Assembly (NCBI GenBank): GCA_964356415.1
Contig: CAYHHK010000001.1
Span: 38,057-102,056, forward strand
Source: an uncultured Flavobacteriales bacterium
Lineage (GTDB): Bacteria; Bacteroidota; Bacteroidia; AKYH767-A; 2013-40CM-41-45
Reading direction: 5' to 3'
DNA: 64,000 bases
Position 1 is the stretch's first letter; every line of letters starts with the position of its first letter. This document shows positions 1,499-45,769 of the stretch, piece by piece. The notes beneath the pieces are model-generated. The model had not been told where the DNA came from and did no database searches. It saw only the letters and a program-made list of their open reading frames with translations. The position numbers and the translations under genes were made by a program.

Positions 1499-1513
1499 GC
1501 TTGGTAAAAAGAT

Positions 1514-2644: not shown

Positions 2645-2704
2645 TTACTTTTCAGAGGCATTTTTAATATTCAATCTTTATATTATGTATTGTATAATTC
2701 AATA

Positions 2705-3103
2705 CTAAGGAATAATTGCAATTGCTTCAATTTCAATAACTGCGGGGTGATCCAATAAATCACTCACGAAAATCATACTCATGCATGGAAAGTTTTTTCC
2801 TATGATTTTTTTCCAGATTATACCCAATTCCTTTCTTGATTCTAAATATTGATTTCTGTCTGTGCAGAAACAGGTCATTTTACAAATATCTTCTGGTTTT
2901 CCGCCCGCCTTTTCCACGACAGTTAAAATGTTTTTCAATGCCTGTTCGAATTGTGGAATTAATTTTTCACTTGTGAATATTTCATTTTCATTCCATCCAA
3001 CCTGACCGGCCATAAATAGAATTCTGCCATTTGCGGCTAGAATTCCGTTGGAATATCCTCTTGGCTGAGGCCAACCATCAGGCAGGATAATTTCATGCTT
3101 CAT
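2705..3103 (-). CDS. ridA: RidA/YjgF family reactive enamine-imine deaminase
   Basis: 132 aa with the characteristic RidA/YjgF/chorismate-mutase-like fold sequence. ATG at 3103. Confidence 0.75.
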   Translation of the reverse strand: MKHEIILPDGWPQPRGYSNGILAANGRILFMAGQVGWNENEIFTSEKLIPQFEQALKNILTVVEKAGGKPEDICKMTCFCTDRNQYLESRKELGIIWKKIIGKNFPCMSMIFVSDLLDHPAVIEIEAIAIIP

Positions 3104-3106
3104 TTC

Positions 3107-4780: not shown

Positions 4781-6902
4781 TTGTTTCAATATTTATTTTT
4801 CTAAATGGAAATCCATCTTGAAATTTTTCCCTTTCATAGACTATGAAAGAGCCAAAATCATCAACCACGCAATCATAGTTTGCACTTACAAAGATTGAAG
4901 TAGTTATTTTCTCAATTACACACGGGCCTTTCAAATGGCAACCATAAATGGGTTTATCCCCATCATACACAAGGATGTTTTGCAGTGTATCTAATTCAGG
5001 AATATATACTTCTCTATACCCTTTAATTGCAGATTCAATCGGTATAGATTTTGTATTTACAGAGAGAAATTCAGGTTTTTTTGTTTTGCCAATAACCCGC
5101 AAGCGAAGGTTGATCAGTTCCATTTCAGTTTTCTCTTCTCTGAGTGAGTAGCCAAATTGTCTGTTGTGTTCAGTGTGAAAAAGTTCAAAAATTTTAACAA
5201 GATTATAATTCAATACATCGTTCCAGGTGCATTCCAGCTGAACCTCGTGATACTGGCCAACATAACGCATGTCCAATGTGGGATGAAAAGAAATCCGTTC
5301 GTGCGGAATCCCTTCCTCTATATGCAGTGAATTGATTCCCTCTTCTTTCATTTCATTGAACAGGGAGAGAAATATTTTACGGTTTAGGTTCCCAAATAGG
5401 GAGTAGCAGGACCTGATATAATCATGTTTTAAATCCCCTAAAAGCATTCCTGCAGCACAGAAGATGGAAGAAACATTCGGAACGAGGAACATGGGTATTT
5501 CCAGTTCTTTACATATTTCAGCTGCGTGGATGGGACCTGCACCGCCGGCCACTATGAACAGGAATTCTCTTGGGTCATAACCCCGTTCAACAGAAATTTC
5601 ACGAACTCCCTGAGCCATGTTGCTGTTGATGATGCGATACATTCCAGCTGCGGTTTCCAGCATTGATAATTCAGTTTTTTTGGCAAGTTTCTCGCTGATT
5701 GCTTTCTCTGCTTTTGATTTATTCAGTTTCAATTCACCACCTGCAAAAAAATCCGGATTCAGATATCCAAGGACCAGGTCGGCATCAGTGCAGGCAGGCA
5801 GGTCTCCTCCGCGATCATAACAAACCGGGCCTGGCATTGCTCCGGCACTTTGCGGGCCCATCTGCAACAATCCTCCTTCGTTCATCCAGCCGATGCTTCC
5901 GCCTCCTGCGCCAATGGTAATAATGTCAAGTGAAGGCAGTGCAATACGGTAGCGGTTTATACTTCCATCGGTACTGGTAATACACTGATTATTGATCACG
6001 ATCGATGCATCAAAACTAGTTCCTCCCATGTCAACGGTGATGCAATTTTGGTGTCCCATCAATTGTGAATAAAACGCGCCTGCTGTAGGGGCAGCAGCGG
6101 GTCCTGATAACACTGTAACTGCCGGATTTTTTTTCACTTGTTCTGGAGCAACCACTCCTCCATTCGACTGCATAATGAGTAGTTTCCCTGAAAATTTTGT
6201 TTCTTTTAGTTTGTAGGTGAGATTGTCGAGGTATTTGGCAACAATCGGCCCTACAAATGCACTCACCACAGTTGTACTCACTCTTTCATAAAAGCGAATG
6301 GAAGGCAAGACTTCAAATGATGCCGTAATAAAAACACCGTGAAGTTTGTCTCTGAGAAACTTGACAGCCTGCATTTCATGTGACGGATTTTTGAAAGAAT
6401 TAATAAAGCAAATCGCAATGGATTCCACTTGTTCATCTTTGATTTTCTTAACAATGAGCAACAACTCTTTTTCCGAAATTTTTTTTAGTACTACTCCATT
6501 TGAGTCGATGCGTTCATCAACAGTAAATCTCAAATATCGTTCAACCAGCGGAGTGACATTTTTAAAGTGGTTGTTGTATTGTTCTTCCCGAATTCCTCTA
6601 CGCATTTCAAGGGCATCGCGAAACCCCTTGGTGGTTATTAGAGCGGTCTTCGCGCCTTTTAATGTTAGCAATGCATTGGTAGCAACAGTAGTTCCATGAA
6701 CAATAGTGTCAATTGAAGAAAGGAATTTTTCAAATTCCGTATAGCGCATTTGTGCTATTTCACGTAATCCGTTGATAAAGCCAATTGAGGGATCATGGGG
6801 AGTTGATAAGGTTTTATGTACAGTTGTACCGCCACTATCAGAAATAGCTATGAGGTCGGTAAATGTTCCACCGATGTCTATTCCTATATTCAGTTTTTCC
6901 AT
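4770..6902 (-). CDS. hyuA: hydantoinase A / oxoprolinase family protein (HyuA-like, ATP-binding)
   Basis: N-terminal MEKLNIGIDIGGTFTDL ASKHA-fold ATPase motif. ATG confirmed at 6902, and the longer ORF-track extension is unlikely. Confidence 0.85.
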   Translation of the reverse strand: MEKLNIGIDIGGTFTDLIAISDSGGTTVHKTLSTPHDPSIGFINGLREIAQMRYTEFEKFLSSIDTIVHGTTVATNALLTLKGAKTALITTKGFRDALEMRRGIREEQYNNHFKNVTPLVERYLRFTVDERIDSNGVVLKKISEKELLLIVKKIKDEQVESIAICFINSFKNPSHEMQAVKFLRDKLHGVFITASFEVLPSIRFYERVSTTVVSAFVGPIVAKYLDNLTYKLKETKFSGKLLIMQSNGGVVAPEQVKKNPAVTVLSGPAAAPTAGAFYSQLMGHQNCITVDMGGTSFDASIVINNQCITSTDGSINRYRIALPSLDIITIGAGGGSIGWMNEGGLLQMGPQSAGAMPGPVCYDRGGDLPACTDADLVLGYLNPDFFAGGELKLNKSKAEKAISEKLAKKTELSMLETAAGMYRIINSNMAQGVREISVERGYDPREFLFIVAGGAGPIHAAEICKELEIPMFLVPNVSSIFCAAGMLLGDLKHDYIRSCYSLFGNLNRKIFLSLFNEMKEEGINSLHIEEGIPHERISFHPTLDMRYVGQYHEVQLECTWNDVLNYNLVKIFELFHTEHNRQFGYSLREEKTEMELINLRLRVIGKTKKPEFLSVNTKSIPIESAIKGYREVYIPELDTLQNILVYDGDKPIYGCHLKGPCVIEKITTSIFVSANYDCVVDDFGSFIVYEREKFQDGFPFRKINIETNAN

Positions 6903-7049
6903 TTTAGGTCCTCTCGTTAATACAAATCTTTTTCCCGGTGGAATAATGTAATGCAAAAAGTTTTATAATGATGAGTGATGTTTTATTCATTCGTAGTTGC
7001 CCCTATCTATGTTCATATTTACTCAATGCGCTTTCTTGATAGTGAAATA

Positions 7050-7096: not shown

Positions 7097-8464
7097 TTAC
7101 GGAATGACGGGCGTATTGAGTTCTCTCAGGTTTGTATAAAGTTGTTCATCAGTAAGTTCATGATCAACAAGCTTCCCTGTAAAATAATCCTGGTAAGCGC
7201 TCATGTCAAAATATCCATGGCCGCACAGGTTGAAGAGAATTGTTTTTGACTTCCCTTCAAGCTTTGCCTGATTTGCCTCCCTGATAGCTGCTGCGATACC
7301 ATGCGTTGCTTCAGGTGCGGGAAGTATCCCTTCGGTACGTGCAAACTTTATTCCTGCATCAAAGCATTCGAGCTGCTGCAGTGATTGTGCCTCTATCAAT
7401 TTATCATGTAATAATTTGCTCACAATTGCACCAGCTCCATGATAGCGCAAACCACCGGCGTGAATAGGAGCAGGAACAAAATTATGTCCAAGTGTGTACA
7501 TAGGAATTAACGGAGTCATTCCAATGGTATCGCCAAAATCATAGCGGTATTGGCCTTTGGTAAGCTTCGGACAAGAAGCCGGCTCTGCTGCAATGCAACG
7601 AACTTTTTTTCCGTTAACGAAATTGTGACGAAGAAATGGAAAAGCGATACCTGCGAAATTTGATCCGCCGCCAAATGGTGCAATTACTACGTCCGGGAAA
7701 TCACCTGCTATTTCAAATTGTTTTTCTGCTTCCAGCCCGATGATGGTTTGATGCATAAGCACATGATTTAAAACACTGCCGAGTGCATATTTTGTTGTTT
7801 CACTTTTAGCAGCCACTTCAACTGCTTCAGAGATAGCAATGCCTAAACTACCCGGTGAGTTCGGATCCATAGCAAGTATTTTTCTACCTGATTCTGTTGT
7901 ATTGCTTGGAGAAGAAATTACAGTAGCATTCCAGGTGTTCATTAAAAGTTTGCGATATGGTTTTTGATCATAACTGATTTTTACCATGTAAACTTCACAT
8001 TGTATGCCGAACAGATTGCATGCAAAACTAAGTGCACTGCCCCATTGGCCAGCGCCGGTTTCGGTGCTTATTTTTTTTACACCTTCCTTTTTGTTATAAT
8101 ACGCCTGTGGCACGGCCGTATTGGGCTTGTGTGAGCCTGCCGGGCTGTTGCCTTCATATTTGTAATAAATTTTTGCAGGTGTATCAAGTAATTTTTCCAA
8201 CCCGTAAGCGCGGTAAAGTGGTGATGGCCGCCAGATTTTATAGATTTCACGAACTTCGTCAGGGATATCAATCCATCGTTCCTGAGATACCTCCTGTTTG
8301 ATAAGTTCCATTGGAAACAAGGGAGCCAGGTCTTGCGGTCCAATGGGTTGCAATGTTCCGGGGTGAAGCGGAGGCGGACATGGATTCGGCATATCTGCCT
8401 GGATGTTGTACCATTGTTTCGGAATTTCTTTTTCCGTCAGGTAGATTTTTTTGATTTTTTCCAT
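7097..8464 (-). CDS. tryptophan synthase beta-chain-like PLP enzyme, TrpB2 (long/stand-alone) type
   Basis: 455 aa with the PLP lysine context (...SHKPNTA...), a long N-terminal extension typical of TrpB2, and a GGGSNFAG glycine loop. ATG at 8464. No trpA is adjacent. Confidence 0.8.
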
Positions 8465-8522: not shown

Positions 8523-9473
8523 TCATTTGTGGGTATCAGATTTTAGTAGCTTTTCAAAACTTCTTTTCATAAAAACACCAATCATTTCTTTGCGGTATGT
8601 GCGCGAATAAATATCGTTATCAATAATTCGCGGCATTTTTATCGCCCTAAGAATTAATTTATCTTTTTCTTCCAAGTTTCCTGATATTACAACAGGCTTT
8701 GGATCAACTCCACCGATTACAATATTTATTTTTCCGGATGCACTGATGGATACAGCGGTTGTTAATGAGGTGAAATCAATACTTTCTCTCAGACGCAATT
8801 TCATAAACACACATTTGTTTTCTTCGATTTGCGGGAGGAGAATACTTTTAATGATGGAGGTTGCAGAAAGATTTCTTGGCGTTAACCCGTCACCGGTATA
8901 AATATCTTCCAACTTTATTTTCTCTTCACCTTTTTCACTTTCAATGAGGAGTTCGGCATTGTAAGCAATCAGTACAGGAGCAGTGTCAGAAACAAATCTG
9001 GAAAAGCACTTTTTTTTTCCGCCCGTTGCGATGCAGATATCACCGTCACATTTCAAACAATAACCAACAGCTTGGCGCCACCATTCACTCTGATTGTAAA
9101 AACTGCACCTGTTCTCGCATAATATATTTCCACCGATGGTGGCTGTTTTTCTCAGCATTGGTGAAGCGGCAGCATGAGCCGCTTCACCTAACGAAGAAAA
9201 ATTAGCTGTGATAAATGAATTATTCTCTATCTCATTAAGTGTAACCAGGGAACCAATTCTGAAGTAATTGTCCTTTGATGTCGTGGTTTTTAATTCATTA
9301 ATTTCTGAAATATCAAGGATGCATACTGCGGTATCATTCCCTTGGAATTTATTTACCAGTATATCAGTGCCACCTGCAAGAAACCTGAAATTATTTGGGT
9401 ATTCTTTTGCAATACTAATTGCCTCAACGACTGATTTGGGCTTAAAATAAAGTGTTTCAGTTGTTACATCCAT
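8523..9473 (-). CDS. FAD-binding subunit of a xanthine-dehydrogenase-family molybdoenzyme (CoxM/XdhB/HcrB-like) with a Cys-rich insertion
   Basis: 316 aa. It has the FAD-binding FLAGGTDIL motif plus the unusual insert [44 protein letters not shown] (Cys at 119, 123, 139, 142, 147 and 156). Confidence 0.85.
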
Positions 9474-9505: not shown

Positions 9506-12298
9506 TCATTTTTCATTCCTTTCATATTGACCTTTAAGCTGTGTAAGTATATCCTCCGGCAGGATAGGCAATTTGGTAATCCGAACGCCAACGGCATCAT
9601 AAACTGCATTTGCAATTGCAGGTATTACAGGATGTAAGGCACCTTCACCGCATTCTTTTGCACCAAATGGTCCTTCGGGGTCATTTGTTTCTATAATATT
9701 GGTAACGATATCAGGTGTATCGAGTGAAGTCGGAATTTTATAGTCGAGAAAATTGTTATTTACGATGAGGCCTTTGTAATATTTCATTTGTTCACTCATT
9801 GCCTGTCCAATTCCCATGTGCCACGAACCCTCCAGTTGCCCTTCAACCGCAAGGGGATTAATTGCCTTGCCACAATCATGTGCGCCCCATACTTTAAGTA
9901 TTTTAACATGGCCGGTTTCCGTATCCACTTTCACTTCTGCTACGCAGGCACCAAAGGAGTAGGAGGGACTCAAACCTGCTCCGGCTCCTTTGAAATCACC
10001 ACCCAGTTTTGGAGAGATATATTTTCCGCTGATAGTGACTGCTCCTCGTTTTGAAGTGAGTATATCAATTGCTTCCAGCCAGCTTAAATTAAGTTTTTTA
10101 TCGTTGCTAAAAATCCTTTCATTGGCCAGATTTAATTCACTAACAGCAATGCCATTTTGCAATGAAACAGATTCAAGGATTTCTTTTCTCAGATTTTCTG
10201 CAGCATTTTTTGCAGCATTTCCTGCCATGAATGTGACCCTGCTTGAGTAGCTTCCCAAATCAACCGGAGTTAAAAGTGTATCACCGGCCAGAACAAATAT
10301 TTTATCCATGGAAAGACTCAAAACTTCTGATACAATCATTGCAAGCATTGTATCGCTTCCTTGGCCGATATCACTTGCACCGCTGGTGATCAATACCCTT
10401 CCATCAAAATCAACTTTCAAGTGAACTGTTGATTGGGGTAATTCATTCCAGATGATTGGCAATGCACTTCCGCTGATAAAAAAACCACATGCTACACCAA
10501 GACCGTGGCCATGCTCTAGTTTGCCATGACGATTTTTCCAGTCACTTTGTTCGGCAACTTTCATCAGAGATTCGCGACTGCCATTTGAAGTTATTCTGTA
10601 TTCGCCAACTGTAAGTGTGTGGGGAGTTAAAAAATTTTTGATTCTTATTTCTACCGGATCAATTTTCAGTTTATGTGCGACATCATCAATAAGACTTTCT
10701 GTCGCAAACCGGGAATTCACAGCACCATGTCCGCGCATGGCACCGCATTGCGGCTTGTTGGTATAAACACGAAAAGTTTTAAATCCGAAATTGTCCAATT
10801 TGTAAGGTGCCTGCAGCAACACTCCGTTATAATAAGAAGTAACGACACCAAAACTTCCATATGCACCTCCATCAATGGCGATGTCAGCGTCCAAAACATT
10901 AAATGTTCCGTCATTTTTTACGCCTAATTGCAACGTCATTCGTGACGGGTGACGACCGTGATTACTAATGAACACTTCTTCGCGTGTGAATCGGATCTTA
11001 ACCGGTTTTCCGGTTTTGCGGGCAAGATGGGAAATGATCATTTCATGTGGAAAAGGATCACTCTTCCCGCCGAACCCGCCACCAACATAGGGTTTGATAA
11101 CGCGCACCCTGCTCAGTGGAACTTCCATCACTTTCGCCAGGGCCCTGTGAAGGTAATGTGGAACCTGGGTAGCGGTTATGATAGTCAATCCGTTCTCATC
11201 CCAGTAGGCAGTGGCTGCATGGGGTTCAGTGAATGCATGCGTCACCCCTTCAAATTCGAATGACATTTTTGAAACAATGTCTGATTCTTCCAGCCCTTTT
11301 TGCTGATCACCAAAACGCAACTCAGCTTTCTTGTGGACGTTGTTATTGAACTTTACGTGCCCATGTATTTTTTCATGGACTCCGACATCATTAAGCGATT
11401 CATCAATGGAGAGGAATTCTTTGATTGGTTTATAGGTTACCTTAATGCATTTCAGGGCTTCTATGGCAATGTCTTCGGTATCGGCTGCAACAGCAGCAAC
11501 TACTTCACCGATGTACCGTACTTTGTCAATTGCCATTGCGGTTTCATCATTCGAAATCGGAAGTACGCCGAATTTTACGGGTAGTTCTTTCCCTGTAATT
11601 ATTGCGCGTACACCGGGTATTTTTTCAGCCTCACTTGTATTAATGCTCTCTATTTTTGCATGAGGCAGGATACTGCGGAGAAATTTTGCATGCAGTGAAT
11701 TATTAATTCTAATGTCATCAGCATACGCTGCTGAACCACTTACTTTTTTGTTGGCTTCGATATAAGGCCTCCCGACACCGACTGTTTTGAATGTTGAATT
11801 ACTGATGCTGGCGGTTTCGGTTTTTGGATTTTGTCTATCATTAGCATATTCAGAAACCGCTTCGATGATTTTTTTGTATCCTGTGCATCGGCAAACATTT
11901 CCCGATAGCGACTCCTTTATTTCATCGATTGAAGGATTCGGGTTTTTATTTACAAAGTCAAGGGCCGTAATAACCATCCCGGGTGTGCAGAAACCACATT
12001 GAACTGCACCCTTCTCCACAAACTTATCCTGAAGTTTATGCAATGTGGCATGGGTTGAAATACCTTCAATGGTGGTTATGCTTGCTCCTTCAAAGCGCAA
12101 AGCCGGTGTAATGCAGCTTAATACGGGCTTATTATTTACCAATACAGTACAGGCACCGCAACTTCCCTGTTCGCAGCCGATTTTTGTACCTGTCAAGCCA
12201 GCTTTTTCACGAATGACCGTTGAAAGCATTTCATGAGCATTAACAACAAGATCGAAATGCTTTCCATTGATAATATAAGAAACAAGCTTATTGTTCAT
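9506..12298 (-). CDS. fused [2Fe-2S] ferredoxin-type small subunit and molybdopterin-binding large subunit of a xanthine dehydrogenase/aldehyde oxidase-family molybdenum hydroxylase
   Basis: 930 aa. The N-terminus carries CEQGSCGAC...C and CGFCTPGM...CRCTGY, the two [2Fe-2S] motifs, followed by the Mo-binding aldehyde-oxidase/XDH domains. The ATG at 12298 overlaps the ferredoxin stop (ATGA). Confidence 0.9.
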   Translation of the reverse strand: MNNKLVSYIINGKHFDLVVNAHEMLSTVIREKAGLTGTKIGCEQGSCGACTVLVNNKPVLSCITPALRFEGASITTIEGISTHATLHKLQDKFVEKGAVQCGFCTPGMVITALDFVNKNPNPSIDEIKESLSGNVCRCTGYKKIIEAVSEYANDRQNPKTETASISNSTFKTVGVGRPYIEANKKVSGSAAYADDIRINNSLHAKFLRSILPHAKIESINTSEAEKIPGVRAIITGKELPVKFGVLPISNDETAMAIDKVRYIGEVVAAVAADTEDIAIEALKCIKVTYKPIKEFLSIDESLNDVGVHEKIHGHVKFNNNVHKKAELRFGDQQKGLEESDIVSKMSFEFEGVTHAFTEPHAATAYWDENGLTIITATQVPHYLHRALAKVMEVPLSRVRVIKPYVGGGFGGKSDPFPHEMIISHLARKTGKPVKIRFTREEVFISNHGRHPSRMTLQLGVKNDGTFNVLDADIAIDGGAYGSFGVVTSYYNGVLLQAPYKLDNFGFKTFRVYTNKPQCGAMRGHGAVNSRFATESLIDDVAHKLKIDPVEIRIKNFLTPHTLTVGEYRITSNGSRESLMKVAEQSDWKNRHGKLEHGHGLGVACGFFISGSALPIIWNELPQSTVHLKVDFDGRVLITSGASDIGQGSDTMLAMIVSEVLSLSMDKIFVLAGDTLLTPVDLGSYSSRVTFMAGNAAKNAAENLRKEILESVSLQNGIAVSELNLANERIFSNDKKLNLSWLEAIDILTSKRGAVTISGKYISPKLGGDFKGAGAGLSPSYSFGACVAEVKVDTETGHVKILKVWGAHDCGKAINPLAVEGQLEGSWHMGIGQAMSEQMKYYKGLIVNNNFLDYKIPTSLDTPDIVTNIIETNDPEGPFGAKECGEGALHPVIPAIANAVYDAVGVRITKLPILPEDILTQLKGQYERNEK

Positions 12299-12528
12299 CT
12301 TGAGGTTCTTTCAACTTTAATAATTTTTGCAGGACAAATTATTGCTGCTTTTAAATTCAATTTGTATTCATCTTCATCGACATCCATTCTATATACTCCC
12401 CCTTTTTCTTTGCTCCCGATTAAGTTGCATTTTCCGTCTTTTCTTGATATTCGCCACCTGCTTTTGTTTGCTTCTGCGCATGCATTGCAGCCAATACACT
12501 TGCTGCGATGAAAGTATATCCTAACCAT
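12295..12528 (-). CDS. small [4Fe-4S] (single-cluster-type) ferredoxin
   Basis: 77 aa with CIGCNAC ... CP motifs. Its start overlaps the U32 stop by 1 nt (TAATG) and its stop overlaps the downstream start (ATGA). Confidence 0.75.
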   Translation of the reverse strand: MVRIYFHRSKCIGCNACAEANKSRWRISRKDGKCNLIGSKEKGGVYRMDVDEDEYKLNLKAAIICPAKIIKVERTSR

Positions 12529-13769
12529 TATGCATCAATGATTTTATACAATTTATCTGAAGGACGAATTTTGGCTTTTACCGGAAATGTAACAACATCA
12601 CCCTTTGAACATCTTTGGATGCTGTTGTCATTAACCCGAAATTCGTGCACATTTTCATTTATGACTCCTGTAGTAGGGCCACTGATTAGTATTTCATCTC
12701 CCACGTCAAGTGTTTGAGATTCAATTTTAAATTCTCCGATTCCGATTTTGTCAAAATACTTCACGACTTTTCCAATGTATATTTTTTTTTGGGTTGCCTT
12801 TGAGCCGTATTCATTATTCCATTCGCCAATTTTCTTTCCAAGATAATATCCGTCCCAGAAACCACGATTGAATACTGTAGATAATTTTATTTTCCATTGA
12901 TCTGCCTTCTCTTTTGAATAGGATTTTTCGTAAAATGAATCAATGGCTTCACGATAACATTTGGTAGTGGTGTAAACATAGTCTTCGCTCCTTCCTCTGC
13001 CTTCAATTTTTAAAACACAAACACCTGTATCAAGTATTTTGTCTATGAAATCAATGGTGCATAGGTCTTTAGCTGACATAATATATTCATTGTCAATTTC
13101 CAGTTCGGTTCCGGATTCTTTATCTATTACAACATAATTGCGTCTGCAATTCTGTATGCAGGCCCCGCGATTGGCAGACGAAAAATTGGTATGGAGACTC
13201 AGGTAACATTTGCCTGAAACGGCCATACACAATGCGCCATGTGCGAAAATTTCTATACGCACAGGTTTTCCGGAGGGCCCAACAATATTTTTCCGTTTGA
13301 TTTCACGCACAATGGATTTCACCTGATCAAGCGTGAGCTCCCGTGCCAGTACCATCACATCTGCAAACTGAGCGTAGAATTCTACAGTCTCAATATTTGT
13401 GATGTTGGCTTGTGTTGAAACATGAACGGGCATACCTGATTTTTTTGCAAAACTCATTGCGGCATGATCTGATGCAATAATCGCATTTATACCACAAGAT
13501 TTAGCCTTGTCAATTATGGTACGCATCAATACTAAATCGTGGTCGTACAGAATTGTGTTAAGTGTGATATATGTTTTGATTTTATTTTCCTTCGCGATTG
13601 AAGAAATATTTTCTAAATCTTCTAAAGTAAAATTGATGCTTGAACGCGCGCGCATATTCAGTTGCTCAACACCAAAATAAATAGCATTGCAGCCTGCTTG
13701 AATTGCGGCCATGAAGGATTCCCACGAACCGCAAGGAGACAAAAGTTCTATTTTGTGGTTCTTAACCAT
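12528..13769 (-). CDS. peptidase U32 family protein (TrhP/RlhA/UbiU-like, probable O2-independent Fe-S hydroxylase family)
   Basis: 413 aa with a conserved U32 core (MVKNHKIELLSPCGSWE...AGCNAIYFG...) and a C-terminal beta-barrel domain. ATG at 13769. Confidence 0.8.
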   Translation of the reverse strand: MVKNHKIELLSPCGSWESFMAAIQAGCNAIYFGVEQLNMRARSSINFTLEDLENISSIAKENKIKTYITLNTILYDHDLVLMRTIIDKAKSCGINAIIASDHAAMSFAKKSGMPVHVSTQANITNIETVEFYAQFADVMVLARELTLDQVKSIVREIKRKNIVGPSGKPVRIEIFAHGALCMAVSGKCYLSLHTNFSSANRGACIQNCRRNYVVIDKESGTELEIDNEYIMSAKDLCTIDFIDKILDTGVCVLKIEGRGRSEDYVYTTTKCYREAIDSFYEKSYSKEKADQWKIKLSTVFNRGFWDGYYLGKKIGEWNNEYGSKATQKKIYIGKVVKYFDKIGIGEFKIESQTLDVGDEILISGPTTGVINENVHEFRVNDNSIQRCSKGDVVTFPVKAKIRPSDKLYKIIDA

Positions 13770-13881
13770 TGTTCAGTGAGTTGACATCAATTTGAAATTC
13801 GAAAATATTATATGGAGGTATGACCTCCTATATCATTTTCAATAAATATTTTCAAAGATGATGAAACTACACAACTCAAAA

Positions 13882-13897
13882 TATGACTTAGGTCATA
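13882..13897. promoter_or_regulatory. candidate operator palindrome TATGAC-N4-GTCATA in the promoter region of the U32-fdx-Mo-enzyme operon
   Basis: Perfect 6-bp inverted arms with a 4-bp spacer inside a 343-bp AT-rich intergenic region. A related half-site (tatgacc) sits in the nearby GGAGGT-cat-ACCTCC hairpin at 13815-13829. Confidence 0.25.
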
Positions 13898-42135: not shown

Positions 42136-43587
42136 ATGCGGATTTTACTCACCGGAGCGAATGGCTATATCGGAATGCGTCTTTTACCGGTTTTGGTTGA
42201 AGCAGGACATGATGTTACCTGTATCGTAAGAGACAGTAGCCGCTTTAGGCATAATCCTGATGTGCACAGGAAAATTTCTATTATTGATTTTGATTTTTTG
42301 AGCAATGGAAAATTGAATGAATATTTTTCAGGTATGCAATTTGACGTTGCATACTACCTTATCCATTCTCTCAAGGACACTTTCGTTGCGCTTGAGGAAC
42401 ATGAAAAAAAATCTGCGTTATGTTTTGTTGAAGTAGCCCGCATCACCGGAGTAAAGCAAATCATTTACCTTGGAGGTATCAGCAATGCAAGTGCCCTTTC
42501 GACTCACCTCAATGCGCGAAAAATTGTTAAGGATATTTTACAGAACTCCGGCATTGCGTATACAATTTATGAGGCAGGAATAATCGTTGGATCAGGCAGT
42601 GCTTCGTTTGAAATCATTCGTGATCTGGTAGAAAAAATGCCGGTAATGATAGCTCCAAGATTAATCAATTCTAAATGTCAGCCGATTGCAATCCGAAACG
42701 TTATTCGGTATCTTCTTGATTCAGTCATGAATGATAGATTATTTAATAAAACTTTTGAAATAGGAGGACCTGATGTATTAACCTATAAAGAAATGATGCT
42801 GCAATTTGCAGAAGTTCGTGGTTACAGGCGCTATATTTTTACCATCCCTTTTCTTACGCCCCGGATTTCCTCCTACTGGTTATTCATTGCAACTTCAACT
42901 AATTTTACCATTGCCCGGCAGCTGATGGAGAGTTTGAAAAATGATGTCGTTTGTAAGGATAATTCTATTCGGGAAATTATATCACAGGAATTGATACCAT
43001 ACCGGGAAGCTATTCAAATGGCATTTCAGATGATAAACCAAAATATGGTTTTGTCTTCATGGAAAGATGCTTCATCCAGTACATTGCATCATCTTGAGAT
43101 AAATAATTATGTGCAGGTTCCTGTTAATGGTTGTTTCAGGGATCGTAAGTGGAAGGAGATTCCGGAAGATAGTGTTGAAGAAGTTGCAGACCGATTTTTT
43201 GGAATTGGCGGTATTCATGGATGGTATTACGCCGATATTTTATGGAGGATGCGCGGCATCATTGATAGAATGTTCGGAGGTGTAGGCTTAAGAAGAGGCA
43301 GAAGAAATGAAAACGACTTGCAGCCCGGAGATGCGCTTGATTTCTGGCGGGTAATCCTTGCTGACCGTAAGAATCGCCGCCTGCTTTTATTCGCAGAAAT
43401 GAAAATACCGGGTGAGGCCTGGTTGGAATTTTCAATTGTAAAATTTCATGACCATTATATTTTGAAGCAAACAGCAACCTTCCGGCCGCATGGTATTGCA
43501 GGTCGGAACTACTGGTATGCAATGCTGCCGTTTCATTTTTTTATCTTTAGGAATATGCTTAAGAAAATTGCAAAAAGATCAAACTAA
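42136..43587 (+). CDS. NAD(P)-binding (NmrA/SDR-type) domain protein with a C-terminal DUF2867-like domain
   Basis: It is the only confidently plus-strand gene. The N-terminus is MRILLTGANGYIGMRL, a Rossmann motif. 483 aa. Confidence 0.7.
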   Translation: MRILLTGANGYIGMRLLPVLVEAGHDVTCIVRDSSRFRHNPDVHRKISIIDFDFLSNGKLNEYFSGMQFDVAYYLIHSLKDTFVALEEHEKKSALCFVEVARITGVKQIIYLGGISNASALSTHLNARKIVKDILQNSGIAYTIYEAGIIVGSGSASFEIIRDLVEKMPVMIAPRLINSKCQPIAIRNVIRYLLDSVMNDRLFNKTFEIGGPDVLTYKEMMLQFAEVRGYRRYIFTIPFLTPRISSYWLFIATSTNFTIARQLMESLKNDVVCKDNSIREIISQELIPYREAIQMAFQMINQNMVLSSWKDASSSTLHHLEINNYVQVPVNGCFRDRKWKEIPEDSVEEVADRFFGIGGIHGWYYADILWRMRGIIDRMFGGVGLRRGRRNENDLQPGDALDFWRVILADRKNRRLLLFAEMKIPGEAWLEFSIVKFHDHYILKQTATFRPHGIAGRNYWYAMLPFHFFIFRNMLKKIAKRSN

Positions 43588-44321
43588 ATTCCGGCTCCGA
43601 TACTTTTCCCGCCGTCAACATAAATTGTCTGCCCTGTAATAAACTGATTTTGCACCGAGACAAGAAAGGAAACCAGGTTTGCAATATCTTCAGGCTTACC
43701 CATTGTTTTGGTCGGTTGTGCCTCTATCAGTTTACCAAGAACAGCAGGATTCAATTTTTGTGTCAGGGGTGTATCAATCAATCCCGGTGCAATTGCATTG
43801 ACCAGCACATTGTGTCTTCCGAGTTCCAAAGCAAGTACTCTTGTAAGGGCAACAATCCCGGCTTTTGATGCTGAGTAGTTTGATTGGCCGGCATTTCCCA
43901 GCCATGCACGTGAAGAAATATTTACGATTCGCCCGCTCTTTTGTTCTTTCATGATCCGTGAGGCTTCACGGCACATCAACCAAGTTCCTTTCAGGTTTAC
44001 GTTCAGTACCGAATCAAAATCTTCCATGCTCATGTTCCAGATCATTTTATCTCTGATAATTCCCGCATTGTTAATGAGTACGTCAAGTCTTTTATACTCT
44101 ATCATTATTTTTTCAAAGAGAGATTTCACAATTAGTTCTTTGGTGATATCGGCTTTTGCAAAACTGAGTTTGCTTTTACCGAATTTTGTAAGCAATTTTT
44201 TTCCGTTTGCGGCATCCATATCTACAGCAATTACAAAGTAATCTTCGTCAATCAGTTTTTTCGTAATTGCCTTGCCAATTCCATTGGCCGCTCCGGTGAC
44301 GATGGCTATTTTAGGCTCCAT
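43584..44321 (-). CDS. SDR family oxidoreductase (FabG-like 3-oxoacyl reductase family)
   Basis: TGAANGIGKA cofactor motif, NNAG and catalytic YxxxK (YSASKAG). Confidence 0.85.
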   Translation of the reverse strand: MEPKIAIVTGAANGIGKAITKKLIDEDYFVIAVDMDAANGKKLLTKFGKSKLSFAKADITKELIVKSLFEKIMIEYKRLDVLINNAGIIRDKMIWNMSMEDFDSVLNVNLKGTWLMCREASRIMKEQKSGRIVNISSRAWLGNAGQSNYSASKAGIVALTRVLALELGRHNVLVNAIAPGLIDTPLTQKLNPAVLGKLIEAQPTKTMGKPEDIANLVSFLVSVQNQFITGQTIYVDGGKSIGAGI

Positions 44322-45162
44322 GTAATAGTGGTAGAGTTAAGCATGTTTCCATTTTTATATCCGCTTCATGTGTGTGATTGCTATCTGATCCTGCTTGACC
44401 CGGGTATTTGTCATTTGAACGCGCGACAATTTTCGCAACAATGCCCAAAGCAATTTCGGCCGGTGAATGCTGCCCGATGTCATATCCCATTGGCATGTCA
44501 ACTTCATTTAGTTGGCCCTGCGTTGTGATATTTTGTTGAAGAAATAATTTTCGTGTGACTAAAACTTTTCTCAAGCTTCCAATCATTCCAAGATATGCAT
44601 GCGGCTGATTTATGCTCAGGGCGAGGATTTCCCTGTCGTAGTCATGGGAATGGGTACAGATAACAATGTATGTATTGCTATCAAATGTAATTTTTGAAAA
44701 TGCCTGTTGATGGGGCAGATTGAATTTTGTCACCTCAGAGAGCTGGATTTTCCTGATATATTCCTTCCTTTCATCAACAATAACTATTTCGAAGTCTAAT
44801 TTATCTGCGAAATAGGAAATGTTGCTTCCTATGTGTCCTGCACCGAAAATAATTAGCTGCTTCCTCGGCTTCATGGGTTCAATAAATATTTTCATGCTTC
44901 CGCCGCAACACATCTTCTCTTTAAGAAGTGCATATTCTTCTAGCTTTGGACGGCCCGATTGATATGTTGCAATTGCAATTTCAATCACTTTCTTTTCGAT
45001 ATTTCCTCCTCCGATGGTTCCTGCGCATCTGCCATTTTCCCAAACAAGCATTTTGGCACCTGCCTTCAAAGGTGTGCTGCCACTGGTTTCAACAACTGTG
45101 CAGAGGGTTATGTGCTCTCTTTGTGCCGATGCATTATTGAGTATTTCAGTGAATCGGATCAT
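44311..45162 (-). CDS. xdhC: XdhC/CoxI family molybdoenzyme maturation factor
   Basis: 283 aa with an XdhC N-terminal domain and a Rossmann-like C-terminal domain (LIIFGAGHIG). Confidence 0.8.
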   Translation of the reverse strand: MIRFTEILNNASAQREHITLCTVVETSGSTPLKAGAKMLVWENGRCAGTIGGGNIEKKVIEIAIATYQSGRPKLEEYALLKEKMCCGGSMKIFIEPMKPRKQLIIFGAGHIGSNISYFADKLDFEIVIVDERKEYIRKIQLSEVTKFNLPHQQAFSKITFDSNTYIVICTHSHDYDREILALSINQPHAYLGMIGSLRKVLVTRKLFLQQNITTQGQLNEVDMPMGYDIGQHSPAEIALGIVAKIVARSNDKYPGQAGSDSNHTHEADIKMETCLTLPLLHGA

Positions 45163-45769
45163 GGGTAAAATATTTCCTGTATTCCTCTTTTGTATTGATG
45201 TTTGCGTGTATGTTGCTGTCGTTTGTTTTCAACTGCTCAAAAGGATATTTCTCTAGGATAGCCCTTAGATTGGTTTCCGGCTGTGTTGCTTTTTTGATGT
45301 CCTGTAAAATTTCAGCTGACACCAATACAGGGTGCCCATGTTTGTTATTGTTTTCCGGAACTACATATTTCCCTACCAAAAGTCTCTTCATCATTTGTTC
45401 AAGGAGTGCAGTGGTTGTAAAAGGATTGTCAATGTTCTGAATAAAGGCACTGTTTTTTGTATTGATTGCATTTACTCCAAGTTTTACACTAAAAAATCTG
45501 CCGTCTTCAGGATGTTCATTGATTATAGTGGTAATATTCGTTTTATTCTTAAGCGGTTTGATCAATTCTTTTGCCTTCTTCGCGGTTTCAGTATTTAAGA
45601 CGATCACAATGTCCGGAATATTTGCATCAATATAAACCATTGTCAGTCTTTCAAGAAACGAAATGGATGAATTAAATTTCAGGAAACATTTTGGACTACC
45701 GAAGCGTTCCGATTTGCCTGCTGAGAGTATGATTGCAGAAACAAAGCCGCTGCCGGGTTGTTTATTCAT
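45146..45769 (-). CDS. mocA: MobA-like NTP transferase, MocA-type molybdenum cofactor cytidylyltransferase candidate
   Basis: AIILSAGKSERFGSPK nucleotidyltransferase motif. Adjacency to xdhC suggests MCD-cofactor synthesis for the XDH-family enzyme. Confidence 0.65.
   Translation of the reverse strand: MNKQPGSGFVSAIILSAGKSERFGSPKCFLKFNSSISFLERLTMVYIDANIPDIVIVLNTETAKKAKELIKPLKNKTNITTIINEHPEDGRFFSVKLGVNAINTKNSAFIQNIDNPFTTTALLEQMMKRLLVGKYVVPENNNKHGHPVLVSAEILQDIKKATQPETNLRAILEKYPFEQLKTNDSNIHANINTKEEYRKYFTHDPIH

What the first reader, a model, noticed from the sequence alone, without database searches (positions are those of the whole stretch)
12295..13769. U32-family (anaerobic hydroxylase-type) protein and a ferredoxin translationally coupled to the HBCR-like molybdoenzyme genes
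U32 proteins (UbiU/UbiV, RlhA, TrhP) are now known as O2-independent Fe-S hydroxylases. E. coli TrhP needs a small ferredoxin (YfhL). Here a 413-aa U32 gene overlaps a 77-aa ferredoxin gene by 1 nt (TAATG), and that gene overlaps the Mo-enzyme gene by ATGA, so all are co-translated. Three interpretations: the ferredoxin donates electrons to the reductase (as in Thauera), and the U32 protein hydroxylates an aromatic or quinone substrate anaerobically; or it is simply the tRNA ho5U system. A hydroxylase-like gene in one operon with a dehydroxylase-like gene has not been described.
Basis: partly seen in the sequence, partly recalled or inferred. Interest (0 to 1): 0.7.

Follow-up and report, generated by a model that had tools for sequence, protein, structure and literature searches.

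The report
Phylum-wide U32–ferredoxin pair beside reductase genes
The U32 gene and its small ferredoxin gene form a conserved two-gene unit found across Bacteroidota, usually with no molybdenum enzyme nearby, so it is probably an RNA-hydroxylase-type housekeeping pair onto which one clade of anaerobic aromatic degraders has attached 4-hydroxybenzoyl-CoA-reductase-like genes, not a new hydroxylase/dehydroxylase pathway.

Summary
A 413-aa U32 gene (12528-13769, minus strand) overlaps a 77-aa single-cluster ferredoxin gene (12295-12528) by 1 nt. That gene overlaps a 930-aa HBCR-like Mo-enzyme gene by ATGA.

The U32-ferredoxin pair is not specific to this operon. In 160 loci from genome and metagenome scans (55-75% identical U32), none has an XDH-family gene within 10 kb. 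In 68 of 79 species genomes the same ~75-aa ferredoxin gene follows directly, mostly with the same 1- or 4-nt overlap.

The U32 is about equally distant (28-30%) from E. coli TrhP, RlhA and UbiU, so it is its own subfamily. Its four Cys ligands are conserved.

The tRNA hydroxylase gene trhO is adjacent in 15 of 80 genomes, all Flavobacteriaceae. An FNR-type box precedes the pair in 26 of 164 loci.

Linkage to the Mo enzyme is nevertheless real within one clade. It holds in 9 of 10 relatives with at least 71% U32 identity, window included, despite shuffled flanks. The linked U32s show no sign of a changed function.

Best reading: an ancestral O2-independent hydroxylase module, probably acting on tRNA U34. 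Reductase genes were added downstream, probably sharing the ferredoxin and anaerobic control. Moderate interest.

The parts
12528..13769 (-). U32-family Fe-S protein, 413 aa. It has a TIM-barrel U32 domain and a C-terminal beta-barrel. The CX6CX15CX3C motif is C181/C188/C204/C208. It belongs to a Bacteroidota-wide subfamily distinct from TrhP, RlhA and UbiU/V.
   Evidence: Pfam PF01136 E=7.9e-68. All NCBIfam equivalogs are below cutoff. It is 28-30% identical to E. coli RlhA, UbiU and TrhP. Relatives at 57-83% identity occur in at least 597 species genomes. The model (pLDDT 71) has a C-terminal domain that matches the U32 C-terminal domain 4HE6 (TM 0.83, rmsd 1.0).
12295..12528 (-). Single-[4Fe-4S] ferredoxin, 77 aa (CIGCNAC...CP), translationally coupled to U32 through TAATG. 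It is the conserved partner gene of this U32 subfamily.
   Evidence: Fer4_15 31.7 bits, above cutoff 22.4. A homolog lies directly downstream of U32 in 68 of 79 species genomes: 35 with a 1-nt overlap and 13 with a 4-nt overlap. It is not a YfhL homolog; only the CxxCxxC motif matches (E=0.034), and YfhL has two cluster motifs. It is the only small ferredoxin ORF in the 64-kb window.
9506..12298 (-). HBCR-like molybdenum enzyme. The 2x[2Fe-2S] gamma part is fused to the Mo-binding alpha part. Its start overlaps the ferredoxin stop (ATGA).
   Evidence: Pfam domains. TIGR03194 scores 828 bits, the best family but below the 994.55 cutoff. 1RM6_A scores 597 bits against 351 for the next structure.
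8523..9473 (-). HBCR-like FAD subunit carrying the HcrB-type Cys-rich [4Fe-4S] loop, which in HBCR is the entry point for ferredoxin electrons.
   Evidence: PF00941. The best structure is 1RM6_B, E=3.7e-35, with all loop Cys aligned.
13884..13895 (.). FNR/CRP-type palindrome (TGACCTAAGTCA on the minus strand), 115-126 nt upstream of the U32 start, in the 343-nt gap after moaCB. It is a candidate operator for anaerobic control of the operon.
   Evidence: Read. The box TGA[TC]N4[GA]TCA is found upstream of U32 in 26 of 164 loci, mostly between -46 and -97, against about 4 expected from the background density. It occurs in both stand-alone and Mo-linked loci. Crp/Fnr-family regulator genes lie nearby in L168, L170 and the P0025 contig.
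43584..45769 (-). SDR, XdhC and MocA-like genes. SDR and MocA-like genes sit directly upstream of U32 in L001, L002, L171 and L172, with XdhC between them in L001 and L002. In the window they are separated from U32 by about 30 kb of nar and moa genes.
   Evidence: Pfam. Homologs lie upstream of U32 in L001, L002, L171 and L172.

Best explanation
The U32 gene and the 77-aa ferredoxin gene are one ancestral, self-contained, translationally coupled module that is present throughout Bacteroidota and neighbouring phyla.

By family membership, the U32 protein is an O2-independent [4Fe-4S] hydroxylase of the prephenate-dependent U32 type. The single-cluster ferredoxin is its dedicated redox partner, carrying away the two electrons of the substrate oxidation, as YfhL does for E. 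coli TrhP. Its most likely substrate is RNA, with tRNA U34 (ho5U) as the best guess. It belongs to a U32 subfamily of its own and is not a TrhP ortholog.

In one clade of nitrate-respiring Bacteroidota that carry a Thauera-type benzoyl-CoA pathway, genes for an HBCR-like Mo/FAD/Fe-S reductase have been placed immediately downstream of the ferredoxin gene. They are read from the same upstream region, which carries an FNR/CRP-type box.

The U32 protein keeps its ancestral job and is not a catalytic partner of the Mo enzyme. Any functional link most likely runs through the shared ferredoxin, as electron donor to the [4Fe-4S] loop of the reductase's FAD subunit, and through shared anaerobic regulation.

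Shown: the anatomy, the phylum-wide conservation of the pair, its independence from Mo genes, the clade-restricted linkage, and the absence of sequence change in the linked U32s. Inferred: hydroxylase chemistry, the RNA substrate, ferredoxin sharing, and FNR-type control.
For: The pair is independent of the Mo enzyme. In 80 species genomes and 80 metagenome contigs with 55-75% identical U32, none has an XDH-family gene within 10 kb.

The pair is ancestral. The ferredoxin gene is directly downstream in 68 of 79 genomes, 35 of them with the same 1-nt overlap.

The linked copies are orthologs, not a recruited paralog. The window, L001 and L002 nest inside the stand-alone U32s with normal branch lengths. 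None of the 108 highly conserved columns is changed in the 9 Mo-linked U32s. Mean identity between linked and other U32s is 61.4%, against 61.1% among the others.

Hydroxylase family features are present: PF01136, an invariant CX6CX15CX3C motif (motif defined in PMC6747719), and a TIM barrel plus U32 C-terminal barrel. Prephenate-dependent O2-independent hydroxylation by U32 proteins is described in PMC5727448, PMC6599085 and PMC10990095.

Several leads point to RNA. trhO passes its NCBIfam equivalog cutoff (263 bits against 170). It lies next to the pair in 15 of 80 genomes, upstream in 13, downstream on the same strand in L074 and on the opposite strand in L077, and in 6 of 80 metagenome loci. 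The FNR-type box upstream of U32 is about 6-fold enriched and clustered in position.

The clade linkage is real. U32-Fd-(DUF302, S74 or nothing)-Mo-FAD is present in the window, L001, L168, L169, L170, the P0025 contig, L002, L171 and L172, although the flanks differ.

Ferredoxin sharing is supported by context. The HcrB-type [4Fe-4S] loop is present. A PFOR gene (TIGR02176, 1715 bits) directly follows the reductase in L171 and lies next to U32 in the P0025 contig. The ferredoxin is the only small ferredoxin ORF in a window that also encodes a ferredoxin-dependent class I benzoyl-CoA reductase.
Against: No experiment links this U32 subfamily to any substrate.

The protein is not a TrhP equivalog (188 against 534 bits). 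It is equally distant from RlhA and UbiU, so an RNA substrate is an analogy.

The trhO adjacency is confined to one family, Flavobacteriaceae, where other neighbours (RecA, PBP1A, a PSP1-like gene) are also syntenic. Part of that signal may therefore be inherited gene order.

The ferredoxin is of a different type from YfhL.

The U32-Fd-Mo linkage survives several local rearrangements in 9 of 10 close relatives, counting the window. In L170 a different HBCR-alpha-like paralog occupies the same place. This argues for some selected link that I cannot specify.

I could not check whether the linked genomes hold a second, stand-alone U32-Fd copy.

Bacteroidales and Marinimicrobia relatives lack the adjacent ferredoxin gene.
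Confidence: 0.55

Rival explanations
1. Functional hydroxylase/dehydroxylase unit. In this clade the U32 protein acts on an aromatic, phenolic or quinone intermediate of the pathway served by the HBCR-like enzyme, and the ferredoxin shuttles electrons between the oxidative U32 step and the reductive Mo step.
For: U32-Fd-Mo-FAD is kept together in 9 of 10 relatives with at least 71% U32 identity, counting the window, despite different flanks, inserted genes and even a different Mo paralog in L170. The genes overlap or are tightly spaced. In the proposed U32 mechanism the hydroxylase needs an electron acceptor (PMC10990095), and HBCR needs a donor.
Against: The U32 sequence is indistinguishable from that of 159 stand-alone orthologs at all 108 conserved columns. 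The stand-alone pair occurs in 160 of 160 scanned loci without any Mo enzyme, including aerobic Flavobacteriaceae. L173 (71%), L006 (70%) and L003 (69%) have no Mo gene.
Confidence: 0.07
2. No functional link at all. The adjacency to the Mo genes is inherited gene order within one family-level clade. The ATGA overlap is incidental operon compaction, and the reductase uses another ferredoxin encoded elsewhere.
For: The linkage is restricted to one clade that appears monophyletic. The junction between the ferredoxin gene and the Mo gene is variable: ATGA in the window and L171, an 8-nt gap in L169, a DUF302 gene in L002, L168 and the P0025 contig, an S74 peptidase gene in L001, and a gap of about 90 nt in L172.
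Against: The flanks on both sides of the block have been reshuffled while the block stayed together. A different paralog sits at the same site in L170. PFOR is adjacent in two loci. No other small ferredoxin ORF is present in the 64-kb aromatic, nar and moa region.
Confidence: 0.25
3. The module hydroxylates a housekeeping substrate other than tRNA U34. Examples are another RNA position (like the ho5C2501 made by RlhA) or a small-molecule cofactor common to Bacteroidota.
For: It is equidistant from RlhA, UbiU and TrhP. Most U32 subfamilies are uncharacterised (PMC5727448, PMC10990095). A YhbP-family flavoprotein-like gene follows the pair in 5 stand-alone loci, and E. coli yhbP lies near ubiTUV.
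Against: It has no DUF3656 domain, which defines RlhA (PMC5727448). There is no UbiT or UbiV partner, and Bacteroidota use menaquinone, which needs no such hydroxylation (own knowledge). The only recurrent functionally informative neighbour is trhO.
Confidence: 0.2
4. It is a genuine PrtC-type collagenase or peptidase, as the family name says.
For: [quoted passage not shown] Sources name the relatives 'U32 family peptidase' or 'putative protease'.
Against: No signal peptide or secretion domain was noted. The 4-Cys Fe-S motif is invariant. A ferredoxin partner gene is obligatory. All experimentally dissected U32 proteins act in O2-independent hydroxylation (PMC5727448, PMC6599085, PMC6747719).
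Confidence: 0.03

Closest known systems
E. coli TrhP (YegQ) with ferredoxin YfhL: prephenate-dependent tRNA U34 hydroxylation
   Same: Both have a U32 domain with the CX6CX15CX3C Fe-S motif and a C-terminal beta-barrel. Both depend on, or are associated with, a small ferredoxin; the YfhL requirement is from Lauhon 2019, J Bacteriol 201:e00433-19, which is my own knowledge because the paper was not readable here. Both coexist with the O2-dependent TrhO, and here trhO is even adjacent in Flavobacteriaceae.
   Different: Identity is only 28%. NF011996 scores 188 against a cutoff of 534. The ferredoxin has one cluster, where YfhL has two. It is also encoded in an overlapping gene, whereas yfhL is unlinked to trhP in E. 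coli. The substrate is untested.
PrtC / PepU32#4 subfamily of Kimura et al. 2017 (P. gingivalis 'collagenase')
   Same: It is a Bacteroidota U32 protein that lacks the DUF3656 domain defining RlhA. PrtC is the published Bacteroidetes representative of a subfamily separate from RlhA (PMC5727448).
   Different: Orthology to PrtC was not tested, because no PrtC sequence was obtainable with the tools. Bacteroidales relatives (L076, L083, L084) lack the adjacent ferredoxin gene.
Thauera aromatica 4-hydroxybenzoyl-CoA reductase HcrCAB with its ferredoxin donor
   Same: The neighbouring Mo enzyme is closest to HBCR alpha (1RM6_A, 597 bits). Its FAD subunit has the HBCR-specific [4Fe-4S] loop. It sits in a genome region with a Thauera-type benzoyl-CoA reductase, Had and Oah. 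A ferredoxin gene is adjacent.
   Different: The gamma and alpha subunits are fused. The scores are below the NCBIfam equivalog cutoffs (828 against 994.55, 200 against 404.55). The adjacent ferredoxin is a single-cluster type that primarily belongs to the U32 gene. No U32 gene is described in Thauera hcr clusters, as far as I know (own knowledge; 0 papers).
UbiU/UbiV/UbiT anaerobic ubiquinone hydroxylases and RlhA (23S rRNA ho5C2501)
   Same: They belong to the same superfamily and share the Fe-S motif. Identity is 30% to UbiU and 29% to RlhA, and the RlhA alignment covers residues 2-412.
   Different: There is no UbiV or UbiT partner and no DUF3656 domain. The NCBIfam cutoffs are not reached: UbiU 159 against 440, UbiV 52 against 275.

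Membership tests
U32 Fe-S 'oxidase'/peptidase U32 superfamily | PF01136 domain | tested here: met
   E=7.9e-68, residues 82-313, 228.7 bits against a cutoff of 22.4.
U32 Fe-S 'oxidase'/peptidase U32 superfamily | Four conserved Cys in a CX6CX15CX3/4C pattern (PMC6747719) | tested here: met
   C181-x6-C188-x15-C204-x3-C208 in the translation. All four are invariant in A1.
U32 Fe-S 'oxidase'/peptidase U32 superfamily | TIM-barrel fold with a U32 C-terminal beta-barrel | tested here: met
   AlphaFold model with pLDDT 71; the Fe-S loop 177-233 has low confidence. Foldseek hits 5D88 (U32 Mk0906) and 4HE6 (U32 C-terminal domain, TM 0.83, rmsd 1.0).
U32 Fe-S 'oxidase'/peptidase U32 superfamily | Prephenate-dependent, O2-independent hydroxylation activity | not testable with these tools
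   This needs genetics or biochemistry.
TrhP (tRNA U34 hydroxylase, yegQ type) | Reaches the NCBIfam equivalog NF011996 cutoff | tested here: not met
   188 bits against a cutoff of 534.
TrhP (tRNA U34 hydroxylase, yegQ type) | Clusters with E. coli TrhP to the exclusion of the other paralogs | tested here: not met
   Identity is 28% to TrhP, 29% to RlhA and 30% to UbiU. In the NJ tree all E. coli paralogs fall outside the Bacteroidota clade. B. subtilis TrhP1/TrhP2 were not available.
TrhP (tRNA U34 hydroxylase, yegQ type) | Required for ho5U34 in tRNA | not testable with these tools
   There is only contextual support: trhO is adjacent in 15 of 80 and 6 of 80 loci.
RlhA (23S rRNA ho5C2501 synthase) | U32 domain together with DUF3656 (unique to RlhA, PMC5727448) | tested here: not met
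   Pfam finds only PF01136, and the protein is 413 aa against 653 aa for RlhA.
UbiU/UbiV | NCBIfam equivalog cutoffs, and a paired UbiU-UbiV(-UbiT) gene set | tested here: not met
   UbiU scores 158.6 against 440 and UbiV 52.5 against 275. No second U32 gene or SCP2 gene lies next to it.
PrtC / PepU32#4 | Orthology to P. gingivalis PrtC | not tested
   No PrtC sequence was obtainable. The assignment rests on the published classification (PMC5727448) and on taxonomy.
Single-cluster [4Fe-4S] ferredoxin (Fer4_15/Fer4_13) | Pfam match above the gathering score, and CxxCxxC...CP ligands | tested here: met
   Fer4_15 scores 31.7 against 22.4 and Fer4_13 26.7 against 24.5. C11, C14, C17 and C65-P are conserved in about 70 orthologs.
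YfhL-type ferredoxin | Two [4Fe-4S] motifs and sequence homology to E. coli YfhL | tested here: not met
   BLASTP aligns only an 8-residue motif, E=0.034. YfhL has two Cys motifs and the window protein has one.
4-hydroxybenzoyl-CoA reductase (neighbouring genes) | Alpha, beta and gamma subunits reach the TIGR03194/03195/03193 cutoffs | tested here: not met
   Scores are 828 against 994.55, 200 against 404.55 and 167 against 257.8. Each is the best family but below its cutoff.
4-hydroxybenzoyl-CoA reductase (neighbouring genes) | Extra [4Fe-4S]-binding Cys loop in the FAD subunit | tested here: met
   The alignment to 1RM6_B shows the loop '[39 protein letters not shown]' with all HcrB Cys positions matched.

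The most novel reading that the evidence does not exclude
In this clade of anaerobic aromatic-degrading Bacteroidota, the U32-ferredoxin-HBCR-like block works as one redox unit. The single-cluster ferredoxin takes the two electrons released by a prephenate-dependent U32 hydroxylation and passes them to the [4Fe-4S] loop of the Mo reductase. Alternatively, the U32 protein has a second, aromatic substrate. Either way, an O2-independent hydroxylase and a reductive dehydroxylase would be mechanistically coupled. The conserved linkage (9 of 10 close relatives counting the window, even with a different Mo paralog in L170) is not excluded as evidence for this.
Probability: 0.07. Interest if true: 0.8.

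Novelty: new member of a known kind. Interest (0 to 1): 0.38.

Why it matters
Three points would matter if they hold.

1. **An uncharacterised phylum-wide module.** A very widespread Bacteroidota U32 subfamily has an obligatory, translationally coupled ferredoxin partner. It is often preceded by an FNR-type box, and in Flavobacteriaceae it is often next to trhO. That gives a concrete, testable candidate for the O2-independent tRNA/RNA hydroxylase of a phylum where TrhP orthologs were not reported (PMC6599085). It also gives a natural two-protein system for reconstituting U32 chemistry, whose electron acceptor is still unknown (PMC10990095).

2. **A caution for annotators.** A U32 gene inside a catabolic operon need not belong to that pathway.

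3. **A candidate electron donor.** The clade-specific attachment of HBCR-like genes to a ferredoxin gene suggests which ferredoxin feeds reductive dehydroxylation, and perhaps benzoyl-CoA reduction, in nitrate-respiring Bacteroidota. That group is little studied for anaerobic aromatic degradation.

Tried and rejected
- **Literature.** No paper holds both 'U32' and '4-hydroxybenzoyl-CoA reductase', the three terms TrhP, U32 and ferredoxin together, or both yfhL and 5-hydroxyuridine. Lauhon 2019 could not be read by DOI or by a guessed PMC id, so the YfhL statement rests on my own knowledge. The supplement of Kimura 2017 with the subfamily lists is not held, so PepU32#4/PrtC membership could not be tested.
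- **Solved structures by sequence.** There is no PDB match for U32 as a single sequence or as a profile, and none of use for the ferredoxin.
- **AFDB fold search.** It was unavailable. The PDB Foldseek search gave mostly generic TIM barrels, plus the two partial U32 structures.
- **Prephenate link.** A DAHP synthase-chorismate mutase gene lies next to the pair only in L173 (and 9 kb away in L163). I rejected this as a recurrent signal.
- **Promoter and terminator scan.** The sigma-70 scan around the U32 start gave no more hits than shuffled sequence. The inverted-repeat tool found nothing in the upstream gap. The FNR-type box was found by eye and by a pattern count instead.
- **Metagenome scan.** It was meant to enlarge the Mo-linked clade but returned mainly distant relatives. 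The clade was delimited with exact-protein look-ups instead.
- **Recruited-paralog idea.** I considered and rejected that the linked U32 is a neofunctionalised paralog. A whole-genome check for a second copy was not possible.

Full report
**1. Observation**

On the minus strand the window carries three ORFs: 12528..13769 (413 aa), 12295..12528 (77 aa) and 9506..12298 (930 aa). Reading the sequence directly confirms both overlaps.
- The U32 stop and the ferredoxin start form TAATG, sharing 1 nt.
- The ferredoxin stop and the Mo-enzyme start form ATGA, sharing 4 nt.

Family searches support all three genes.
- The 413-aa protein matches Peptidase_U32 (PF01136) with E=7.9e-68.
- The 77-aa protein matches the single-cluster ferredoxin families Fer4_15 and Fer4_13 above their gathering scores.
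- The 930-aa protein is a fusion of a 2x[2Fe-2S] part with the hammerhead and Mo-cofactor-binding domains of the xanthine dehydrogenase family.
- The next gene (8523..9473) is the FAD subunit.

The same MoaCB-U32-Fd-Mo order occurs in three independent assemblies.

**2. Is the neighbour HBCR-like?**

Yes.
- The alpha part's best NCBIfam family is 4-hydroxybenzoyl-CoA reductase alpha (828 bits, below the 994.55 cutoff).
- Its best solved structure is Thauera HBCR 1RM6_A (597 bits, against 351 for the next).
- The FAD subunit best matches 1RM6_B. It carries the extra Cys-rich loop that binds the additional [4Fe-4S] cluster in HBCR, with every Cys aligned.

The rest of the window supports a benzoyl-CoA pathway setting.
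- BcrB, BcrC and BcrD pass their equivalog cutoffs, and a BcrA-like gene is present.
- Had and Oah pass their cutoffs, and a Dch-like hydratase, MocA and XdhC are present.
- There is a NarGHI-type nitrate reductase with NarK transporters, and a full moa/moe set.

T9SS sorting domains mark the organism as Bacteroidota. It looks like a nitrate-respiring anaerobic aromatic degrader.

**3. What kind of U32 is it?**

It has the four Cys ligands in the canonical spacing, C181-x6-C188-x15-C204-x3-C208. They are invariant among 14 relatives. This is the motif described for U32 Fe-S proteins in PMC6747719.

It does not reach any NCBIfam equivalog cutoff: TrhP 188 against 534, UbiU 159 against 440, UbiV 52 against 275.

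Against the four E. coli K-12 paralogs (fetched) it is 29% identical to RlhA, 30% to UbiU, 28% to TrhP and 20% to UbiV. In a neighbour-joining tree all E. coli paralogs fall outside a tight Bacteroidota clade.

It lacks DUF3656, which defines RlhA (PMC5727448).

An AlphaFold model (mean pLDDT 71, low in the cluster-binding loop) is a TIM barrel plus a C-terminal beta-barrel. The barrel superposes on the U32 C-terminal domain 4HE6 (TM 0.83), and the U32 structure 5D88 is also hit.

So it is a bona fide U32 Fe-S protein of its own subfamily. The published classification places the Bacteroidetes protein PrtC in subfamily PepU32#4 (PMC5727448). I could not test whether this protein is the PrtC ortholog.

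**4. The decisive comparison: the pair elsewhere**

The protein has very many close relatives. The 120 best are 67-100% identical, 394-441 aa long and from Bacteroidota.

A scan of one genome per species found at least 597 species with a relative. The best 80 (57-70% identity) span Sphingobacteriales, Chitinophagales, Cytophagales, Flavobacteriales, Bacteroidales, Ignavibacteria, Balneolia and Marinimicrobia. A metagenome scan gave 80 more loci.

I searched all 160 loci (up to +/-10 kb where the contig allowed) with the window's proteins.
- None holds an XDH-family Mo enzyme.
- The small ferredoxin gene follows U32 directly in 68 of the 79 genome loci with enough downstream sequence.
- Of those 68, 35 have the same 1-nt overlap, 13 have a 4-nt overlap and 10 have a gap of 20 nt or less.
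- In the metagenome loci the figure is 37 of 70.
- The CIGCNxC...CP ligands are conserved.

It has nothing specifically to do with the Mo enzyme. Bacteroidales and Marinimicrobia relatives lack the adjacent ferredoxin gene.

**5. The linkage to the Mo enzyme is real but clade-restricted**

Exact-protein look-ups of the closest relatives show U32-Fd followed by HBCR-like genes in these loci:

| Locus | U32 identity |
|---|---|
| L001 | 83% |
| L168 | 79% |
| L169 | 78% |
| L170 | 76% |
| P0025 contig | 74% |
| L002 | 73% |
| L171 | 72% |
| L172 | 71% (ferredoxin gene uncalled but present) |

The linkage is absent in L173 (71%), L006 (70%) and L003 (69%).

Around this block everything varies.
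- Upstream lies SDR with a MocA-like gene (and XdhC in L001 and L002), or a divergent gene of about 600 aa, or PFOR.
- Between the ferredoxin and Mo genes there is nothing (ATGA in the window and L171, 8 nt in L169), or a DUF302 gene, or an S74 peptidase gene.
- Downstream come hemerythrin, a YhbP-like gene and tryptophanase, or PFOR, or in the window TrpB2 and hydantoinase-like genes.
- In L170 a different HBCR-alpha-like paralog occupies the site. It is 44% identical to the window's, its FAD subunit lacks the Fe-S loop, and the gene order is reversed.

In the window, the SDR, XdhC and MocA genes lie 30 kb away, behind the nar and moa block.

**6. Has the linked U32 changed?**

No.
- Of 108 alignment columns that are at least 95% conserved in 159 stand-alone U32s, none is altered in the majority of the nine linked ones.
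- Only seven clade-specific positions exist, and most are conservative changes.
- Mean identity of linked to stand-alone proteins (61.4%) equals that among stand-alone proteins (61.1%).
- The linked clade nests among stand-alone sequences with ordinary branch lengths.

This argues for an unchanged, ancestral function. It argues against a U32 recruited to hydroxylate a pathway intermediate.

**7. Clues to the ancestral function**

Clustering all neighbours of the pair showed one recurrent, functionally informative gene: trhO, the O2-dependent tRNA uridine-34 hydroxylase. It scores 263 bits on NF001133 against a cutoff of 170.
- It is adjacent in 15 of the 80 genome loci.
- It is upstream on the same strand in 13 of them. 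Gaps are 6-33 nt or overlapping in nine, and about 340 nt in four Flavobacterium loci.
- It is downstream on the same strand in L074 and downstream on the opposite strand in L077.
- It is also adjacent in 6 of the 80 metagenome loci.

All named cases are Flavobacteriaceae, where other neighbours are also syntenic, so part of this may be inherited order.

A palindrome of the FNR/CRP type, TGA[TC]-N4-[GA]TCA, lies upstream of U32 in 26 of 164 loci. Most copies sit between -46 and -97. About four would be expected from the background density. It occurs in stand-alone and linked loci alike, and in the window it is at 13884-13895. Crp/Fnr-family regulators are encoded nearby in three linked loci.

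In E. coli, TrhP and TrhO are the O2-independent and O2-dependent routes to ho5U34 (PMC6599085), and TrhP is an Fe-S protein (bioRxiv 10.1101/2021.04.01.438105). It needs the ferredoxin YfhL (Lauhon 2019; my own knowledge). The window's ferredoxin is a different, single-cluster type.

TrhP orthologs were reported mainly from Proteobacteria, and TrhP1/2 mainly from Firmicutes, some Tenericutes and some Cyanobacteria (PMC6599085). The Bacteroidota module is therefore a reasonable candidate for the analogous enzyme. This is inference, not demonstration. The published mechanism proposal has the U32 enzyme oxidise its substrate by two electrons, with prephenate as the O donor and an unknown acceptor (PMC10990095). 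A dedicated ferredoxin fits the acceptor role.

**8. Why are reductase genes attached in one clade?**

The most economical link is the ferredoxin.
- HBCR receives electrons from reduced ferredoxin through the extra [4Fe-4S] cluster of its FAD subunit (established for the Thauera enzyme; own knowledge). That loop is present here.
- A PFOR gene directly follows the reductase genes in L171 and is next to U32 in the P0025 contig.
- The 77-aa protein is the only small ferredoxin ORF in the 64-kb window, which also encodes a ferredoxin-dependent class I benzoyl-CoA reductase.
- Shared control by an O2-responsive regulator is a second plausible reason.

Pure inheritance of gene order cannot be excluded (rival, 0.25). 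A true hydroxylase/dehydroxylase couple is not excluded by the conserved linkage, but it is disfavoured by sections 4 and 6 (0.07).

**9. Verdict**

The ferredoxin-to-reductase idea remains open. The novel pathway reading is unlikely.

I file the pair as a new, uncharacterised member of the known U32-hydroxylase-plus-ferredoxin kind. Its attachment to HBCR-like genes is clade-specific and appears to be undescribed. Interest is moderate.

Noticed in passing
window 43584-63868 (- strand): A complete Thauera-type benzoyl-CoA pathway in a Bacteroidota genome. BcrC, BcrB and BcrD pass their NCBIfam cutoffs, and a BcrA-like gene is present. There is an AMP-forming CoA ligase, an extra HGD-D subunit, an unusual ApbA(ketopantoate reductase)-activase fusion (53230-55131), a thiolase, Had, Oah, a Dch-like hydratase, 3HCDH-ECH, MocA, XdhC and SDR.
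   Followed up: partly
window 14113-41934 (- strand): About 30 kb of Moco biosynthesis genes (moaCB, moaE, moeB-rhodanese, moaD, mobA, moeA, moaA, a ModE-like gene, TauE), a porin, a hemerythrin-like gene, two NarK transporters, NarGHI-type nitrate reductase, ScdA/RIC, a carbonic anhydrase and two cytochromes c. This block separates SDR/XdhC/MocA from U32. In L001, L002, L171 and L172 the SDR gene abuts U32 directly, so the block looks like an insertion or rearrangement in the window's lineage.
   Followed up: partly
window 7097-8464 (- strand); L168 15662-17038; L169 15420-16796: The genes after the HBCR-like enzyme point to indole or tryptophan. The window has a TrpB2-type PLP enzyme (NF009057, 737 bits against cutoff 366). 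L168 has a tryptophanase (NF009709, 670 against 285), and L169 has a Beta_elim_lyase gene of the same 458 aa at the same position (Pfam only; NCBIfam was not run on it). The true substrate of this 'HBCR-like' enzyme may not be 4-hydroxybenzoyl-CoA.
   Followed up: no
window 299-6956 (- strand): Hydantoinase/oxoprolinase A and B subunits follow in the same direction. Their best family is caprolactamase CapA/CapB (660 and 397 bits), both below the cutoff of 1000. RidA, an acyl-CoA dehydrogenase and a thiolase-like protein come next. This is an uncharacterised ATP-dependent ring-opening or carboxylase-type step.
   Followed up: no
L007 11466-11915; also L018, L026, L033, L166; L168 15170-15616, L169, L170, L001: A YhbP-family (PNPOx-like) gene of about 148 aa lies directly after U32-Fd in five stand-alone loci, and a little further downstream in four Mo-linked loci. 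It scores 122 bits on NF002900, below the 176 cutoff. In E. coli, yhbP lies about 1.5 kb from ubiT-ubiU-ubiV. It may be a third component of U32 systems.
   Followed up: partly
window 13884-13895; 26 of 164 related loci, mostly between -46 and -97 from the U32 start: An FNR/CRP-type palindrome, TGA[TC]N4[GA]TCA, is enriched about 6-fold upstream of the U32-ferredoxin pair in both stand-alone and Mo-linked loci. This suggests O2- or redox-responsive control of the module across the phylum.
   Followed up: partly
L170 10481-14212: In one close relative a different XDH-family paralog sits right after U32-Fd. Its alpha subunit is 44% identical to the window's, yet it scores 953 bits on the HBCR-alpha model. 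Its FAD subunit is XdhB-like and lacks the Fe-S loop, and the gene order is FAD then Mo.
   Followed up: partly
L173 10514-11587: A DAHP synthase-chorismate mutase fusion, which makes prephenate, is convergent with the stand-alone U32-Fd pair. It is seen in only one locus (another is 9 kb away in L163), so it is anecdotal.
   Followed up: yes
L002 9474-9860, L168 10484-10873, P0025 contig: A DUF302 gene of about 128 aa is inserted between the ferredoxin and Mo-enzyme genes in three linked loci. Its function is unknown and it has no NCBIfam match.
   Followed up: no
window 13810-13833: A small hairpin (GGAGGT-ATG-ACCTCC within an AT-rich imperfect palindrome) lies 41-64 nt upstream of the U32 start. 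It was flagged as terminator-like on the + strand only, and its significance is unknown.
   Followed up: no
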